A DNA stretch of 64,000 nucleotides from a virus (Duplodnaviria > Heunggongvirae > Uroviricota > Caudoviricetes): the IMG/VR virus record IMGVR_UViG_2609460332_000008. One strand, 5' to 3'. A model generated the notes under the pieces. It saw only the letters and a list, made by a program, of their open reading frames with translations, was not told where the DNA came from and made no database searches. A program made the position numbers and the translations under genes. Of this stretch, positions 38,119 to 43,119 are shown piece by piece; within the stretch, counting starts at the first letter, position 1, and each line of letters begins with the position of its first letter.

Positions 38119-38255
38119 TGTTTGAGTCTTATATGGCAGAACGTCTTCGCCGCCGCTGGGTGCGCCTGCGCTTATATCGTTTTCCTAGTTCTGTTTTGAC
38201 CGATTACCGGATACTGAAGAATTACGCCAAAACACTGAAAGGAGCTGCCGCATGA
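38118..38255 (+). CDS. ylcG: YlcG-like small protein (45 aa; below the ORF-track cut-off)
   Basis: [45 protein letters not shown]; overlaps the rusA stop and the Q start. Confidence 0.7.
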   Translation: MFESYMAERLRRRWVRLRLYRFPSSVLTDYRILKNYAKTLKGAAA

Positions 38256-38941
38256 ATACCCAATATTTACAGTATGTCCGCGAGCAACTCATTGTGGCTA
38301 CCGCTGATTTGAGCGGAGCAACGAAAGGACAGCTTGAAGCCTGGCTGGAGCATGCACAATTTGATACTGGTACATACAAACGAAAGAAGCCGCGCATTCT
38401 GGATGAGGTAACTGGCAGGATGATTACGCTGGATAATCCGCCGATTTCCGGTAAGCAGTTGTACGCAAAAGGTTCATCCATTGCACTGGTCAGCCAGGTT
38501 GAGTTCTCAACCTCGTCATGGCGCCGCGCGGTTCTGTCTCTCGAAGAACATCAGAAAGCGTGGTTGCTGTGGAGTTACAGCGAAAGTGTTCGCTGGGAAC
38601 ATCAGGTCACCATAACGCAGTGGGCATGGAGCGAGTTTAAGACTCTGTTGGGTACCAGGAAAATTGCAGGTAAAACACTGGAACGTTTGAAGAAGTTGAT
38701 CTGGCTGGCGGCACAGGATGTGAAGAACGAGCTGGCAGGGCGTAAGACCTATGAATACCAGGAGCTGGCATCACTGGTGGGAGTGACATCAAAAAACTGG
38801 TCTGAGACATTTACTGAACGCTGGGTTGCAATGAAGCACATTTTTCTACAGCTTGATAGCCAAGCTTTATTGCTTTTAACGAAAACACGTTCAAAACAAA
38901 AGACCATATTTTCACAGCAAGATATTGCAAAACTGGATTAA
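38252..38941 (+). CDS. Late-gene antiterminator Q-like protein (not lambda Q type)
   Basis: 229 aa in the Q position between the nin region and the lysis cassette. Confidence 0.6.
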   Translation: MNTQYLQYVREQLIVATADLSGATKGQLEAWLEHAQFDTGTYKRKKPRILDEVTGRMITLDNPPISGKQLYAKGSSIALVSQVEFSTSSWRRAVLSLEEHQKAWLLWSYSESVRWEHQVTITQWAWSEFKTLLGTRKIAGKTLERLKKLIWLAAQDVKNELAGRKTYEYQELASLVGVTSKNWSETFTERWVAMKHIFLQLDSQALLLLTKTRSKQKTIFSQQDIAKLD

Positions 38942-39122
38942 AAATCATATATTTTATGTAAATCTGATATTTTGCCAATGTTGTACGCACTGGCAGTAAT
39001 CCAAATTCAAGCCCGAGGTTTAAAGCCTTGGGCTTTTCTGTTTCTGAACGGTGAGTAGCCTTCCAACCTACCCCAGCCAGGGTGTCTTCAGCTGTTGAGT
39101 TGATATTGCTTAACCCTCTGTT

Positions 39123-39148: not shown

Positions 39149-39262
39149 CCAGGCTTGCGGGGAGCATCAACTCCGTGCTTTGTCGTTAAATTACCCCGTG
39201 AGCCTGATTTCTGACATTTAACGTCCCGGCCTTTTGTCGGCGGCGAAACATTGGCTATTCAT

Positions 39263-39568
39263 ATGCACGAAAAAGAGAGCCTTGCCGGAGCGTTCTGGCT
39301 CGTTTTGCTGATCATCGCAGGTTGGGGCGGTCTGGTCCGCTACCTGATAGATGTGAAGCAGAGTAAAGCAACGTGGAGTTGGATAAATGCTCTGGCTCAA
39401 ATAGTGGTATCAGGATTCACCGGTGTTATTGGTGGCCTGATCAGCATCGAAAGTGGATTCAGTATTTACATGATTCTCGCGACAGCGGGGATTAGTGGTG
39501 CGATGGGTTCGGTTGCACTGACGTACTTCTGGGAACGACTGACAGGGGTGAAAAATGCAAAATCTTAA
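39263..39568 (+). CDS. Holin (possible dual-start holin/antiholin)
   Basis: Hydrophobic helices; directly upstream of and overlapping R; upstream in-frame TTG at 39251. Confidence 0.7.
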   Translation: MHEKESLAGAFWLVLLIIAGWGGLVRYLIDVKQSKATWSWINALAQIVVSGFTGVIGGLISIESGFSIYMILATAGISGAMGSVALTYFWERLTGVKNAKS

Positions 39569-40031
39569 TCCTCAGCGTAAAGCCTTCCTCGATATGTTGG
39601 CGTGGTCAGAAGGAACGGATAACGGGCGACAACCGACACGTAACCACGGTTATGATGTTATTGTTGGCGGCGAACTGTTTACTGATTACTCCGATCACCC
39701 TCGCAAACTTGTCACGCTACACCCCAAACTCAAATCAACAGCCGCCGGACGTTATCAGCTTCTTTCACGCTGGTGGGATGCTTACCGTAAACAGCTTGGT
39801 TTGAAAGACTTCTCCCCCAAAAGCCAGGACGCAGTGGCATTACAGCAGATTAAAGAGCGTGGTGCTTTACCGATGATTGATCGCGGTGATATCCGTCAGG
39901 CAATCGACCGTTGCAGCAATATCTGGGCTTCACTGCCGGGCGCTGGTTATGGTCAGTTCGAGCATAAGGCTGACAGCCTGATTGCAAAATTCAAAGAAGC
40001 TGGCGGAACGCTCAGAGAGAGTGAGGTATGA
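39555..40031 (+). CDS. R: Endolysin R (lambda-type lytic transglycosylase)
   Basis: ...[20 protein letters not shown]...[26 protein letters not shown]... near-identical to lambda R as recalled. Confidence 0.9.
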
Positions 40032-40489
40032 GCAGAATAACCGCGATTATCTCCGCTCTGGTTATCTGCGTCATCGTCTGCCTTTCATGGGCGGTTAATC
40101 ATTACCGCGATAACGCGATTACCTACAAAGCCCAGCGCGACAAAAATGCCAGAGAACTGACGCTGGCGAACGCGGCAATTACTGACATACAGATGCGTCA
40201 GCGTGATGTTGCTGCGCTCGATGCAAAATACACGAAGGAGTTAGCTGATGCGAAAGCTGAAAATGATGCTCTGCGTGATGATGTTGCCGCTGGTCGTCGT
40301 CGGTTGCACATCAAAGCAGTCTGTCAGTCAGTGCGTGAAGCCACCACCGCCTCCGGCGTGGATAATGCAGCCTCCCCCCGACTGGCAGACACCGCTGAAC
40401 GGGATTATTTCACCCTCAGAGAGAGGCTGATCACTATGCAAAAACAACTGGAAGGAACCCAGAAGTATATTAATGAGCAGTGCAGATAG
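40028..40489 (+). CDS. Rz: Rz i-spanin
   Basis: N-terminal TM segment plus coiled-coil periplasmic domain; matches lambda Rz. Confidence 0.9.
40248..40430 (+). CDS. Rz1: Rz1 o-spanin lipoprotein embedded in Rz (+1 frame)
   Basis: [60 protein letters not shown] matches lambda Rz1. Confidence 0.9.
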
Positions 40490-40520: not shown

Positions 40521-40814
40521 TTATTGTGAGCAATACACACGCGCTTCCAGCGGAGTATAAATGCCTAAAGTAATAAAACCGAGCAATCCATTTACGAATG
40601 TTTGCTGGGTTTCTGTTTTAACAACATTTTCTGCACCACCACAAATTTTTGCTGCATCGACAGTTTTCTTCTGCCCAATTCCCGAAACGAAGAAATGATG
40701 GGTGATGGTTTCCTTTGGTGTTACTGCTGTAGGTTTGTTTCCAACAGTAAACGTCTGTTGAGCACATCCTGTAATAAGCATTGCCAGAGCGGCAGAAAAC
40801 AACATTTTTTTCAT
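40521..40814 (-). CDS. bor: Bor serum-resistance lipoprotein
   Basis: MKKMLFSAALAMLITGCAQQTFTV... matches lambda Bor; opposite strand between Rz and cos as in lambda. Confidence 0.9.
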   Translation of the reverse strand: MKKMLFSAALAMLITGCAQQTFTVGNKPTAVTPKETITHHFFVSGIGQKKTVDAAKICGGAENVVKTETQQTFVNGLLGFITLGIYTPLEARVYCSQ

Positions 40815-41294
40815 CTTATTATCCTGCATTGTTAAAAACGGCAGAATCCTATGTGACAACAATTAAACGATAGTTAAATGGATTGATGAAAATTAAAACT
40901 ACACAGGTGGGCTCAGACTATTGGAGGAAGTTGGGGACACTCAGAATCCTGTGGAATGAAATAAACCGGTCTATCCGTCCATTACCCTTTTAGCTGCGCT
41001 GTATCGTCGCCGTATTCCCGCATTAACCATGACCGTAGCCCGACGGGGAATTCCTTCTGCGTGAGTGTGCGGGAATAATTAAAAACGATGCACACCGGGT
41101 TTTTACCGCGTTAATGATTCGCGGGTTTATCCCGGTGCGATGGTGGAAGAAACAGGAAGCTGTATTACAGAAAGTGCTACTACTGTATCCCGATGCGATG
41201 TATGTAATGTGAGTCAGATAATGGCACAGGATGTGGTGATGTGGCAGTCTGGAACACAGGATATATTGTCAGAATAAGACCCGTAGGAATAAAA

Positions 41295-41621
41295 ATGAAA
41301 AGACGCCTTTTACTACTTTTTCTGTTATCTGTCCTGGCAGTGGGATGCTCGCAGCAAAAAGCTGATGAGCCCCGGCAATTAGTGACGGTGTATCCACGAT
41401 ATCCGGAATATGCTGCAGCAAATTATATCAAGGGGCTGGTTGAGGTTAAGTTCGATATTGGTGCTGATGGGACTGTGACACGGATCGTTTTTCTCCGCTC
41501 AGAGCCTCATAATTTGTTTCGTGATGAAGTGGTGAAGGCCATGGCGAAATGGCGATTTGAAAAGAATCGCCCCTGTCAGGGAGTGAAGAGACAATTTATC
41601 TTTACGCCGTCACGTCCTTGA
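41295..41621 (+). CDS. Lipoprotein with TonB-C-terminal-like domain (moron)
   Basis: Lipobox LAVGC; ...VYPRYPEYAAANYIKGLVEVKFDIGADGTVTRIVFL...AMAKWRFEKNRP fits the TonB C-terminal pattern. Confidence 0.6.
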   Translation: MKRRLLLLFLLSVLAVGCSQQKADEPRQLVTVYPRYPEYAAANYIKGLVEVKFDIGADGTVTRIVFLRSEPHNLFRDEVVKAMAKWRFEKNRPCQGVKRQFIFTPSRP

Positions 41622-41743
41622 TGCTTCCAGGTAGAGAGGGGCTGGAAGCAGGAGAAAAATGAAAGAGCCAGCGGTTATATTTTTGTCATGGCTGACGAGG
41701 AATGATGGAAGAAGGCGTTGTATGCCACACAACGCCTCACTGT

Positions 41744-41923
41744 TCATTTCTTCTTTTTCTCTGGTGGAACCCGATGAATAAGAGTTGCACTGGTTTCCGA
41801 TGAGATGGCGATATACTCGGGCAAAGTATGCTGGCAGTTTTCCAACTGGTCAAAAATACCTGCTCTCGTCTGTTGCAATGCCTGCAGCATGCGGCGGCAA
41901 TGCGCCTTGCTTTTACTAACCAT
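41744..41923 (-). CDS. Hypothetical 59-aa protein (start chosen at the ATG with a strong RBS)
   Basis: GAGGAAGGAAAG directly upstream of ATG (MVSKSKAHCRRMLQ...). Confidence 0.45.
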   Translation of the reverse strand: MVSKSKAHCRRMLQALQQTRAGIFDQLENCQHTLPEYIAISSETSATLIHRVPPEKKKK

Positions 41924-41984
41924 CTTTCCTTCCTCTATCAGTCGCTGCGTGAACTCATCATGGAATACCAGGTAAATGCGGATG

Positions 41985-42236
41985 TTATCGGTTTTGGCTA
42001 CGCAGCATAGTACAAAACGGACAGGTGCATCCCGGGACGGGGGAGGCGTCACATGTCCCTGTGATGGTTGTTCCGGGTAATGTACTGTGTGGGGCATAAA
42101 AATGTCCGATAATTTTACTTTCTACCGCAGTTAGTTGATTCGTTGGTCCTGGTAGCACATTGGGCGAGGATTTAAATGCCAGGCAACTGAAGGATGATGT
42201 CGCAAGGGAGATAGCGAGAATATTTCTGATTTTCAT
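41985..42236 (-). CDS. Small secreted Cys-rich peptide (83 aa)
   Basis: N-terminal signal-peptide-like MKIRNILAISLATSSFSCLA; C-terminal ...GTCDASPVPGCTCPFC... cysteine cluster. Confidence 0.45.
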   Translation of the reverse strand: MKIRNILAISLATSSFSCLAFKSSPNVLPGPTNQLTAVESKIIGHFYAPHSTLPGTTITGTCDASPVPGCTCPFCTMLRSQNR

Positions 42237-42573: not shown

Positions 42574-43093
42574 ATGGAAGTCAACAAAAAGCAGCTGGCT
42601 GACATTTTCGGCGCGAGTATCCGTACTATTCAGAACTGGCAGGAGCAGGGAATGCCCGTTCTGCGAGGCGGTGGGAAGGGTAATGAGGTGCTTTATGACT
42701 CTGCCGACGTCATAAAATGGTATGCCGAAAGGGATGCTGAAATTGAGAACGAAAAGCTGCGCCGGGAGGTTGAAGAACTGCGACAGGCCAGCGAGACAGA
42801 TCTCCAGCCAGGGACTATTGAGTACGAACGCCATCGACTTACGCGTGCGCAGGCCGACGCACAGGAGCTGAAAAATGCCAGAGACTCCGCTGAAGTGGTG
42901 GAAACCGCATTCTGTACTTTCGTGCTGTCGCGGATCGCAGGTGAAATTGCCAGTATTCTCGACGGGATCCCCCTGTCGGTGCAGCGGCGTTTTCCGGAAC
43001 TGGAAAACCGACATGTTGATTTCCTGAAACGGGATATCATCAAAGCCATGAACAAAGCAGCCGCGCTGGATGAACTGATACCGGGGTTGCTGA

Positions 43094-43119
<26 letters not shown>
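42574..43119 (+). CDS. nu1: Terminase small subunit Nu1
   Basis: MEVNKKQLADIFGASIRTIQNWQEQGMPV... near-identical to lambda Nu1. Confidence 0.95.

What the first reader, a model, noticed from the sequence alone, without database searches (positions are those of the whole stretch)
40863..41621. TonB-C-terminal-like lipoprotein moron between bor and cos
The bor-cos interval is a known accessory locus. Here it carries a 108-aa lipoprotein whose mature part resembles a TonB C-terminal domain, preceded by a 430-bp non-coding stretch that could hold its own promoter. A prophage lipoprotein that mimics TonB could interfere with TonB-dependent receptors and so block superinfection or colicin entry.
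Basis: inference. Interest (0 to 1): 0.55.

Follow-up and report, generated by a model that had tools for sequence, protein, structure and literature searches.

The report
Prophage lipoprotein copying TonB's receptor-binding domain
A lambda-like prophage carries a small, selectively maintained gene for an outer-membrane lipoprotein that is essentially just the receptor-binding end of the host energy transducer TonB; it probably jams TonB-dependent entry of toxins and phages, but nobody has tested this although up to about 30% of complete E. coli genomes carry it.

Summary
Window 41295-41621 (+) encodes a 108-aa protein: a lipoprotein signal peptide (…LAVGC18|S), a 7-residue linker, then a complete TonB C-terminal domain. 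Support: Pfam TonB_C at 49 bits; a gapless 39%-identity alignment to E. coli TonB residues 153-235 (the protein's C-terminus); AlphaFold model versus TonB in the BtuB complex, TM 0.92, rmsd 1.0 Å. It lacks TonB's membrane anchor and proline-rich rod, so it cannot transduce energy.

It is a real gene. dN/dS is 0.12 against a 72%-identical allele. Two alleles occur in 1225 and 415 of 5426 complete E. coli genomes, including phage 21 and Nissle 1917. Relatives hold the same position (after the lysis cassette, before terminase, late-operon strand) in Klebsiella and Rahnella prophages and 73 of 80 viral contigs examined. In Serratia, soluble relatives form a mobile block with a colicin immunity gene and an SOS-controlled colicin.

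Best reading (about 0.45): an un-energised, outer-membrane-tethered decoy that binds TonB boxes and blocks TonB-dependent import. This is untested.

The "own promoter" idea is not supported. The upstream stretch mostly holds a conserved structured-RNA-like element shared by lambdoid phages that lack this gene.

The TonB resemblance is already annotated in public records. No functional study was found.

The parts
41295..41621 (+). Gene for the 108-aa lipoprotein with a stand-alone TonB C-terminal domain (stop codon included). It is identical to WP_000830178.1 of E. coli Nissle 1917 and to CPT_21_73 of phage 21.
   Evidence: ORF list; Pfam and NCBIfam matches; 100% DNA identity to phage 21 and Nissle; dN/dS 0.12 against allele B.
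41295..41348 (+). Signal peptide with lipobox (MKRRLLLLFLLSVLAVGC). Cys18 would be the lipidated first residue. Ser at +2 predicts sorting to the outer membrane by Lol.
   Evidence: Read directly from the sequence. The Cys is invariant in the alignments. The +2 rule is established knowledge. Lipidation itself was not tested.
41370..41603 (+). TonB C-terminal domain, residues 26-103, which align with E. coli TonB residues 153-230. The order is strand, short helix, beta1, beta2, helix, beta3. The conserved TonB positions P161, Y163, P164, F180, G186, F202, W213 and F230 are kept. R158, Q160 and R166 are replaced by T, Y and Y.
41349..41369 (+). Seven-residue tether (SQQKADE) between the lipid anchor and the domain. 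It stands in place of TonB's roughly 120-residue membrane anchor plus proline-rich rod.
   Evidence: Gapless alignment to TonB begins at residue 24-26. pLDDT is low at residues 17-21.
41285..41288 (+). Shine-Dalgarno sequence AGGA, 6 nt before the ATG.
   Evidence: Read from the sequence. GGAAT is also present before allele B.
41267..41275 (+). TGTCAGAAT, an extended -10-like block inside the only upstream stretch conserved between alleles A and B (ATTGT[C/T]AGAATAAGAC). It is a candidate weak promoter and is unproven.
   Evidence: Alignment. PWM scan: allele B TGtTAGAAT scores 10.9. The window's best site scores 7.9, against a background median of 7.0 and a 90th percentile of 9.5.
40995..41165 (+). 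Conserved structured-RNA-like element in the sense of the late transcript. It is not specific to this gene. The 5' domain at 40998-41094 was modelled as R1.
40521..40814 (-). bor/iss lipoprotein gene, the left neighbour on the opposite strand.
   Evidence: Pfam Lambda_Bor at 105 bits; annotated as iss in Nissle.
40028..40489 (+). Rz i-spanin, with Rz1 o-spanin embedded at 40248-40430. This is the end of the lysis cassette and shows that the phage already has its spanin pair.
   Evidence: ORF list; annotations of identical DNA in phage 21.
42574..43119 (+). nu1, the small terminase gene and first gene after cos. The cos end by comparison with the linear phage 21 record is at about 42384.

Best explanation
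The gene makes an outer-membrane lipoprotein whose whole folded part is a copy of the TonB C-terminal domain, hung on a 7-residue tether from the inner leaflet of the outer membrane. It has no ExbB/ExbD-coupled anchor and no periplasm-spanning rod, so it cannot deliver energy.

The most likely action is competitive. It would bind TonB-box strands by beta-strand addition to its beta3 edge. These strands could belong to TonB-dependent transporters such as FhuA, FepA, Cir and BtuB, to incoming group-B colicins that carry their own TonB box, or to both. Occupying them next to the membrane would leave real TonB unable to energise uptake.

The expected result is tolerance to TonB-dependent colicins and microcins and to phages such as T1 and phi80, at some cost in iron and B12 uptake.

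The gene sits in the late operon's orientation between the lysis and packaging genes. It is therefore certainly transcribed after induction. Whether it is also made in the lysogen is open.

Shown here: a real gene under purifying selection; a lipoprotein signal; the TonB_C fold with the TonB core residues; the missing energy-coupling parts; a conserved position in prophages; linkage of relatives to a colicin-immunity block.

Inferred: outer-membrane location, binding to TonB boxes, the phenotype, and the timing of expression.
For: - Fold and sequence. Pfam TonB_C scores 49.2 bits. The alignment to E. coli TonB residues 153-235 (the end of the 108-aa protein) is gapless at 39% identity, and P161, Y163, P164, F180, G186, F202, W213 and F230 are kept. 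The best structural match is TonB in its receptor-bound state, 2gsk_B, with TM 0.92 and rmsd 1.0 Å.
- Missing parts. NCBIfam TonB equivalogs match only profile positions about 150-240 and score 45-69 bits against cut-offs of 265-448.
- Selection. dN/dS is 0.12 at dS about 1.5 between alleles A and B. Allele A is at least 99% identical in 1203 of the 1225 genomes that carry it.
- A distinct stand-alone family. Short signal-peptide proteins of 107-133 aa score 83-99 bits, whereas enterobacterial TonB fragments score 54-60 bits.
- Conserved position over 31-72% protein identity and different lysis and terminase modules. This holds for E. coli phages 21 and JLK-2012, a Klebsiella phage and a Rahnella prophage. 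In 80 IMG/VR loci, 73 have a same-strand lysis gene as the nearest recognised upstream gene, and 42 have a same-strand terminase downstream.
- Serratia. A soluble relative lies 67 nt upstream of, and on the same strand as, a colicin-E1-type immunity gene. That pair is convergent with a pore-forming colicin that has a perfect LexA box and an N-terminal DSMTVTG motif resembling a TonB box. The 2.55-kb block is shared at about 90% identity between a chromosomal and a plasmid-like context, and the shared DNA starts 22 nt before the TonB_C ATG.
- Precedents. TonB boxes of receptors and of colicin M pair with the TonB beta-sheet (PMC2533080). Howard et al. 2001 (title seen; content from my own knowledge) showed that periplasmic TonB C-terminal fragments inhibit FhuA and FecA functions. 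Phage T5 Llp is an outer-membrane lipoprotein that jams FhuA from the periplasmic side and gives resistance to phi80, colicin M and albomycin (PMC9586334).
Against: - No experiment on this protein was found in the held literature.
- No promoter of its own stands out, so expression in lysogens is unproven. If the gene is only expressed late, the benefit is less obvious.
- TonB is needed for virulence of extraintestinal E. coli (Torres et al. 2001; title seen). Yet the gene is nearly invariant in many such strains, including Nissle and ATCC 25922. A strong constitutive TonB antagonist should be costly.
- The residues equivalent to TonB R158, Q160 and R166, which contact receptors in the solved complexes (my knowledge of 2GSK and 2GRX), are changed to T/Y/Y in allele A and K/L/Y in allele B. 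Binding specificity may therefore differ.
- Whether a 7-residue tether lets the domain reach a TonB box was not modelled.
- The Serratia colicin also carries a ColA_N domain, so it may be Tol-dependent. Other Serratia strains have the TonB_C gene at the same site without the colicin.
- Several relatives sit in ordinary chromosomal contexts.
Confidence: 0.45

Rival explanations
1. The protein is a selective toxin decoy rather than a general TonB antagonist. It would capture the TonB box, or another translocation epitope, of incoming bacteriocins or phage proteins in the periplasm, without appreciably occupying the host's nutrient transporters. It would then act as an import-level immunity factor at little cost in iron uptake.
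For: - In Serratia, relatives are co-oriented with, and move together with, a colicin immunity gene and its colicin.
- That colicin has both a TonB-box-like motif and a ColA_N domain.
- Receptor-contact residues R158, Q160 and R166 are replaced.
- The gene is common and nearly invariant in iron-hungry extraintestinal E. coli, which argues against a costly general blockade.
- Colicin M's own TonB box binds TonB (PMC2533080).
Against: - The E. coli prophages that carry the gene show no linked bacteriocin.
- TonB-box binding is largely backbone pairing, so discrimination between receptor boxes and toxin boxes is not obviously achievable.
- No binding data exist.
Confidence: 0.2
2. The protein is a late-lytic envelope function. 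As an outer-membrane lipoprotein it would bind peptidoglycan or envelope proteins to time or assist lysis, or to protect progeny from debris. Under this reading it has nothing to do with blocking import in lysogens.
For: - The gene is always just downstream of the lysis genes and on the late strand.
- No promoter of its own was detected.
- Its PHROG family (phrog_1267, E 5e-43) is labelled 'Rz-like spanin' in the lysis category.
- Affinity of the TonB C-terminus for peptidoglycan has been reported (my own knowledge, not checked here).
Against: - A complete Rz/Rz1 spanin pair is already present.
- The protein is a 90-residue globular TonB domain, unlike the short proline-rich o-spanins, so the PHROG label looks like annotation by position.
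- bor, on the opposite strand in the same interval, shows that this interval holds lysogenic-conversion cargo.
- Chromosomal and colicin-linked relatives have no lysis context.
Confidence: 0.12
3. The protein is a host-benefit factor that acts positively or in signalling. It might prime or modulate particular TonB-dependent transporters or their signalling. Alternatively it might contribute to serum or host survival together with the neighbouring bor/iss gene.
For: - It is adjacent to iss/bor.
- It is enriched in human and animal extraintestinal isolates among the listed hits.
- Stand-alone relatives occur in ordinary chromosomal loci.
Against: - No energy coupling is possible without the TonB N-terminus, so activation of transport is hard to picture.
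- Adjacency to bor is not conserved: JLK-2012, Klebsiella and Rahnella phages lack bor at this position.
Confidence: 0.08
4. The gene is a dead fragment of a captured tonB gene, as the labels 'TonB fragment' and 'partial tonB-like membrane protein' imply.
For: Those labels appear in some records. Some genomes carry truncated or frameshifted copies.
Against: - dN/dS is 0.12 with saturated synonymous change.
- The protein has a purpose-built lipoprotein signal peptide joined precisely to the start of the domain.
- It is only 39% identical to host TonB but 41-46% identical to other stand-alone proteins in other genera.
- Its position is conserved across genera.
Confidence: 0.03

Closest known systems
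E. coli TonB, C-terminal domain (residues about 150-239; PDB 1U07, 2GSK chain B, 2GRX chain C)
   Same: - Same fold: TM 0.92, rmsd 1.0 Å.
- 39% identity without gaps.
- The YP motif, the aromatic core and the beta3 edge strand that pairs with TonB boxes are all kept.
   Different: - No N-terminal transmembrane helix and no proline-rich rod.
- It is anchored to the outer membrane by lipid rather than to the inner membrane.
- R158, Q160 and R166 are replaced.
- It ends four residues short of TonB's C-terminus, aligning through TonB residue 235 of 239.
- It cannot transduce proton-motive force.
Engineered periplasmic TonB C-terminal fragments (Howard, Herrmann, Stratilo and Braun 2001, J Bacteriol 183:5885)
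   Same: Each is a TonB C-terminal domain delivered to the periplasm without the energy-coupling part. These fragments act as dominant-negative inhibitors of FhuA- and FecA-dependent functions (title seen; content from my own knowledge).
   Different: The fragments are laboratory constructs that are soluble and overexpressed. The protein here is a natural phage gene, lipid-anchored next to the receptors, and a diverged homologue rather than TonB itself.
Phage T5 Llp and the Cor lipoproteins of phi80, N15, HK022 and T1-like phages
   Same: They are small phage-encoded outer-membrane lipoproteins that act from the periplasmic side on a TonB-dependent transporter. They give exclusion of phages and resistance to colicin M and albomycin (PMC9586334).
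   Different: - No sequence or fold relation: this protein hits only TonB_C in Pfam, NCBIfam and PHROGs.
- Llp binds the FhuA plug and works by allostery on one receptor. A TonB-domain copy would target the TonB box that all such transporters share.
Prophage-encoded mimics of host surface-machinery parts (for example phage FimU-like pilins in Pseudomonas; PMC12952977, abstract seen)
   Same: The logic is the same: a prophage carries a copy of one component of a host envelope machine, and that copy interferes with entry of other phages.
   Different: The machine is different (type IV pilus) and the protein family is different. That case has experimental proof.
Stand-alone TonB_C proteins of Serratia, linked to a colicin immunity gene
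   Same: They have the same single-domain architecture behind a signal peptide and are 30-34% identical. Their context points to protection against an imported toxin.
   Different: They are soluble (signal peptidase I site, no lipobox). They are chromosomal or plasmid-borne rather than phage-borne. Their function is equally untested.

Membership tests
TonB energy transducer (NCBIfam PRK10819 equivalogs) | N-terminal transmembrane anchor that couples to ExbB/ExbD | tested here: not met
   Residues 1-18 are a cleavable lipoprotein signal peptide. The TonB equivalog profiles match only their positions about 150-240 and score 45-69 bits against cut-offs of 265-448.
TonB energy transducer (NCBIfam PRK10819 equivalogs) | Proline-rich periplasm-spanning spacer | tested here: not met
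   Only seven residues (SQQKADE) lie between Cys18 and the start of the domain.
TonB energy transducer (NCBIfam PRK10819 equivalogs) | C-terminal receptor-binding domain | tested here: met
TonB_C domain (Pfam PF03544 / TIGR01352) | Profile score above the curated cut-off, and the alpha/beta fold with a three-stranded sheet | tested here: met
   Scores are 49.2 bits against 24.6 and 47.4 against 27.1. The AlphaFold2 domain has pLDDT above 95 with strands at 47-55, 61-70 and 94-103. Foldseek finds TonB structures as the top 11 hits.
Bacterial outer-membrane lipoprotein | Lipobox with invariant Cys, and no Asp at +2 (the Lol avoidance signal) | tested here: met
   The sequence reads LAVGC|SQ. The Cys is invariant in phage-borne relatives, and +2 is S, T or A. 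Actual lipidation and location cannot be tested here.
Llp/Cor superinfection-exclusion lipoproteins | Sequence or fold relation to Llp or Cor | tested here: not met
   No match other than TonB_C families in Pfam, NCBIfam, PHROGs or PADLOC.
Llp/Cor superinfection-exclusion lipoproteins | Inactivation of a TonB-dependent receptor, giving phage or colicin resistance | not testable with these tools
   This needs the expression and sensitivity assays described under next steps.
Moron (autonomous transcription unit inside a phage operon) | Own promoter upstream | tested here: inconclusive
   No + strand site was found by the consensus scan. The best PWM score is 7.9, within background (median 7.0, 90th percentile 9.5). 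A conserved TGT[C/T]AGAAT block is the only candidate.
Moron (autonomous transcription unit inside a phage operon) | Own terminator downstream | tested here: not met
   There is no intrinsic-terminator-like site on the + strand between 41621 and 42092. A hairpin at 41625-41649 has no T run.
Spanin (label of phrog_1267) | An i-spanin/o-spanin pair, or a unimolecular spanin, needed for outer-membrane disruption | tested here: not met
   A separate Rz/Rz1 pair is present at 40028-40489. This protein is a globular TonB domain, and the PHROG name appears to be positional.

The most novel reading that the evidence does not exclude
Stand-alone TonB C-terminal domains may be a widespread and so far unrecognised class of import-level immunity proteins. 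In prophages of Escherichia, Klebsiella, Rahnella and relatives they would be lipid-tethered under the outer membrane. There they would act as un-energised decoys for TonB boxes, giving broad tolerance to TonB-dependent colicins, microcins, phages and sideromycin antibiotics. In Serratia the same domain would have been recruited as a second, periplasmic layer of immunity in a mobile colicin module. With up to about 30% of complete E. coli genomes carrying one of the two alleles (Nissle 1917 carries the one studied here), this would change how colicin and phage sensitivity and sideromycin susceptibility are predicted from genomes.
Probability: 0.35. Interest if true: 0.75.

Novelty: new variant of a known kind. 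Interest (0 to 1): 0.52.

Why it matters
- **A broader kind of exclusion.** If the decoy reading is right, a single small prophage gene would blunt every TonB-dependent entry route at once. Llp and Cor, by contrast, each act on one receptor.
- **Prevalence.** The gene is in 1225 of 5426 complete E. coli genomes, and a second allele is in 415 of 5426. Carriers include the probiotic Nissle 1917, the reference strain ATCC 25922 and the species type strain.
- **Practical reach.** It could affect colicin and microcin warfare in the gut, the host range of therapeutic phages that need TonB, and susceptibility to siderophore-conjugated antibiotics.
- **Testability.** The question can be answered with one cloned gene and standard spot assays.
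- **A test in nature.** The Serratia link offers an independent natural test of the same idea.
- **Annotation.** The names 'TonB family protein', 'TonB fragment' and 'Rz-like spanin' are all misleading for this family.

Tried and rejected
- **Literature.** Nine full-text searches found no functional study of this gene (one search turned up the TonB-box precedent paper read, and one search confirmed that Howard et al. 2001 is cited). Two O157 expression papers that mention CP-933N do not cover it. Howard et al. 2001 could not be opened.
- **First AlphaFold run.** A 7-sequence alignment gave pLDDT 55, which is unusable. It was replaced by a 27-sequence alignment.
- **The search for related loci.** The narrower A5 worked.
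- **ColV/ColBM plasmids.** I tested whether the gene travels with iss on these plasmids. It does not. There are only 5 plasmid-labelled records, all non-mobilizable and four of them 175-730 kb.
- **Rfam.** Nothing was found in the upstream stretch at E up to 1.
- **Fur box.** Read by eye from the sequences, the GATAAT-containing sites match only about 10 of 19 positions. I rejected it as not significant.
- **Sigma-54 motif.** A TGGCAG motif upstream has no proper -12 element, so I rejected it.
- **bor promoter.** The sigma-70 promoter annotated inside the conserved element of HK629 and lambda, pointing toward bor, has hexamers that are not conserved in this window. It therefore does not explain the conservation.
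- **PADLOC.** No defence-system match for this protein or for three neighbouring small ORFs.
Full report
**What is there**

The window around the finding is the right end of a lambda-like prophage late region:

| Feature | Coordinates |
|---|---|
| Q | 38252-38941 |
| S | 39251-39568 |
| R | 39555-40031 |
| Rz | 40028-40489 |
| Rz1 (embedded) | 40248-40430 |
| bor/iss (minus strand) | 40521-40814 |
| The ORF in question | 41295-41621 |
| nu1 | 42574-43119 |
| Terminase A | from 43094 |

The same DNA, 100% identical from Rz to cos, is the right end of phage 21. The linear phage 21 record ends at window position about 42384, which places cos there. The gene does lie between bor and cos.

The ORF encodes 108 aa:

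MKRRLLLLFLLSVLAVGC|SQQKADE|PRQLVTVYPRYPEY…FIFTPSRP

An AGGA ribosome-binding site lies upstream.

**Is it a TonB C-terminal domain?**

Yes, by every test available.

- Pfam TonB_C scores 49.2 bits against a cut-off of 24.6. TIGR01352 scores 47.4 against 27.1.
- Against all PDB sequences the best hits are the E. coli TonB C-terminal domain itself (1u07, 2gsk_B, 2grx_C). E is about 1e-14, and the alignment is gapless from residue 24-26 to 103, equivalent to TonB 151-230.
- Identity to TonB residues 153-235 is 39%. P161, Y163, P164, F180, G186, F202, W213 and F230 are kept. Y215 is F. R158, Q160 and R166 are T, Y and Y.
- A first AlphaFold2 run on 7 close sequences was poor, with pLDDT 55. With 27 sequences from a second homologue search, mean pLDDT was 86.8 and the domain exceeded 95.
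- Foldseek against the PDB puts TonB from the BtuB:TonB complex first, with target TM 0.92, rmsd 1.0 Å and 40% identity. Ten more TonB or FusB domains follow. TolA domains appear only at E above 0.1.

**What it is not**

It is not a TonB.

- The NCBIfam TonB equivalog profiles match only their C-terminal 85-90 positions, at 45-69 bits against cut-offs of 265-448.
- The N-terminus is a lipoprotein signal peptide, not the ExbB/ExbD-coupled anchor.
- Seven residues replace the proline-rich rod.

It is not a spanin, despite the label of its PHROG family (phrog_1267, 'Rz-like spanin'). The phage has its own Rz/Rz1 pair.

It is not a dead fragment. Against the 72%-identical allele B of phage JLK-2012 the nucleotide identity is 73%, dS is 1.5, dN is 0.18 and dN/dS is 0.12.

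**Distribution**

- Allele A (this window) is in 1225 of 5426 complete E. coli genomes, and 1203 of those copies are at least 99% identical.
- Allele B is in 415 of 5426.
- Carriers include Nissle 1917, ATCC 25922 and the type strain DSM 30083.
- Public records already call it 'TonB family protein' (PGAP), 'TonB C-terminal domain protein' (phage 21), 'TonB fragment' (phage Perceval) or 'partial tonB-like membrane protein encoded within prophage CP-933N'. The resemblance is therefore not new.
- None of nine full-text literature searches turned up a functional study (searches did find the precedent papers).

**A wider family**

An exhaustive profile search found 2795 TonB_C proteins at E up to 0.001. 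The best non-self hits are not TonBs. They are other 107-133-aa proteins aligned from the signal peptide to the end, at 83-99 bits and 41-46% identity. Enterobacterial TonB fragments score 54-60 bits.

Some of these short proteins have lipoboxes: the E. coli phage alleles, the Klebsiella/Raoultella type, the Rahnella type and others. Others have signal peptidase I sites, as in Erwinia and Serratia.

**Genomic context**

The phage-borne members keep one position across large sequence distance and across unrelated lysis and packaging modules:

- Phage 21, PhiR47_2 and Nissle: Rz, bor, then the gene, then cos and nu1.
- JLK-2012 and Stx1a phages: no bor, and HK97-type terminase.
- Klebsiella phage ST13-OXA48phi12.4, 41% identity.
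- A Rahnella inusitata prophage, 31% identity: holins, GH19 endolysin, Rz, a 74-aa ORF, the gene, then DUF1441 small terminase.

I compared 80 IMG/VR loci with a panel of lysis and terminase proteins.

- In 73 loci the nearest recognised upstream gene is a lysis gene on the same strand.
- In 42 loci the nearest recognised downstream gene is a terminase on the same strand.
- No locus showed an opposite-strand arrangement.
- In most of the remainder the recognised neighbour was missing because the contig ended or the gene was not in my panel.

Other relatives are chromosomal, with no phage context, in Raoultella, Erwinia and others.

**The Serratia link**

- In S. ureilytica (L021, L022) and in a plasmid-like contig of Serratia sp. 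BIGb0234 (L028, L029), a soluble relative lies 67 nt upstream of a colicin-E1-type immunity gene on the same strand.
- That pair is convergent with a 554-575-aa pore-forming colicin.
- The colicin has a perfect LexA box, CTGTGCATTCGTACAG, before its start.
- Near its N-terminus it has DSMTVTG, which resembles the TonB boxes of group-B colicins and receptors. That comparison is from my own knowledge of DTMVV, ETLTV and DTLVVTA.
- It also has a ColA_N domain.
- The two contexts share exactly one 2.55-kb block at about 90% identity. It runs from 22 nt before the TonB_C ATG to just beyond the colicin promoter.

Two caveats apply. Other Serratia strains carry the TonB_C gene at the same chromosomal site without the colicin. 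The ColA_N domain may also mean that the colicin is Tol-dependent.

**How it most likely works**

Established structural work shows that the TonB box of a receptor, and of colicin M, adds as a strand to the TonB C-terminal sheet (PMC2533080).

TonB C-terminal fragments exported to the periplasm inhibit FhuA- and FecA-dependent functions. This is Howard et al. 2001. Its title was seen, the paper could not be opened, and the content is from my own knowledge.

Phage T5 Llp shows that a small lipoprotein under the outer membrane can jam FhuA and give resistance to phi80, colicin M and albomycin (PMC9586334).

A lipid-anchored, energy-less TonB domain is therefore best read as a competitive decoy for TonB boxes, sited at the membrane where they emerge. 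I put this at about 0.45, with a further 0.2 on the toxin-selective version of the same idea.

Points against:

- There are no data.
- Expression in lysogens is unproven.
- The likely cost to iron uptake sits awkwardly with the gene's near invariance in strains that depend on TonB.
- The substitutions at R158, Q160 and R166 may alter binding.

**The upstream stretch**

Measured from the true bor start it is about 480 nt.

The consensus scan finds no + strand sigma-70 site. My PWM scan gives a best score of 7.9. The median best score of 496-nt blocks across the window is 7.0, and the 90th percentile is 9.5.

Only one block next to the gene is conserved between alleles A and B: ATTGT[C/T]AGAATAAGAC. 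It contains an extended -10-like TGT[C/T]AGAAT at 41267-41275. That is a candidate, no more.

The gene lies on the strand of the Q-antiterminated late transcript, so it is transcribed after induction in any case.

**A separate finding inside that stretch**

Positions about 40995-41165 are about 95% identical between the window and JLK-2012, although the adjacent genes are only 73% identical. The same element follows the lysis genes in lambda/HK629, VT2-Sakai, many Stx phages, O157 prophages and Salmonella phage S135. It was found in 432 phage records. It occurs with or without bor, with or without this gene, and with different terminases.

RNAalifold predicts nested helices on the + strand. 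The evidence for them is:

- Lambda has a C:G to G:C swap.
- S135 has changed three consecutive pairs of the long helix. Two changed on both sides; the third is a one-sided U:A/U:G to C:G change.
- Most one-sided changes are C:G to U:G, which would be mismatches on the other strand.
- 96.7% of cells pair, against 30-59% for shifted controls.

A covariance model finds the element before the gene in all 40 E. coli-type viral loci, in none of the Klebsiella- or Rahnella-type loci, and once in the window. Rfam has nothing here.

The covariation support is modest, because there are few independent changes. I report it as a lead, not a result.

**Verdict**

The TonB likeness is already annotated. 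The functional class, a phage lipoprotein that copies TonB's receptor-binding domain, would be a new variant of phage lipoprotein-mediated exclusion. It is directly testable.

Noticed in passing
window 40995-41165 (+); 5' domain 40998-41094: A conserved structured-RNA-like element sits directly after the lysis cassette and is shared by lambda/HK629, phage 21, VT2-Sakai, many Stx phages and a Salmonella phage (432 phage records). Its presence does not depend on bor, on the TonB-like gene or on terminase type. It shows compensatory and G:U-preserving changes on the late-transcript strand, has no Rfam family, and is far more conserved (about 95%) than the adjacent gene (73%).
   Followed up: partly
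L021 5001-7510, L028 5001-7447 (Serratia): A 2.55-kb mobile block holds a soluble stand-alone TonB_C protein, a colicin-E1-type immunity protein and a LexA-controlled pore-forming colicin. The colicin has a TonB-box-like DSMTVTG motif and a ColA_N domain. The block is shared at about 90% identity between a chromosomal and a plasmid-like context.
   Followed up: partly
window 41744-41923 (-): A 59-aa ORF (MVSKSKAHCRRMLQAL…) matches phrog_4843 over its full length (E 3e-46), with function unknown. Public records disagree on which strand is coding in 41650-42100: phage 21 and PGAP call + strand ORFs, whereas PhiR47_2 calls - strand ORFs.
   Followed up: no
window 41985-42236 (-): An 83-aa ORF begins with a plausible secretion signal (MKIRNILAISLATSSFSCLA) just left of cos. 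It has no Pfam, NCBIfam, PHROG or PADLOC match, and its coding status was not tested.
   Followed up: no
window 38957-39036 (+): There is a sub-threshold Rfam match to isrJ (30.4 bits against a gathering score of 37, E 0.01) just downstream of Q, where the pR' leader and terminator region of lambdoid phages lies. It is probably a terminator-like hairpin rather than a true isrJ.
   Followed up: no
PHROG family phrog_1267: The PHROG family that contains this protein is labelled 'Rz-like spanin' in the lysis category, apparently because of its position next to Rz and its lipoprotein signal. The members are TonB_C lipoproteins, so the label is likely to propagate wrong annotations.
   Followed up: partly
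one search hits P0036, P0043, P0047 and others: Among the best distant hits are long proteins of 480-1300 aa with 3-6 tandem TonB_C-like stretches. This architecture is unlike both TonB and the stand-alone proteins.
   Followed up: no
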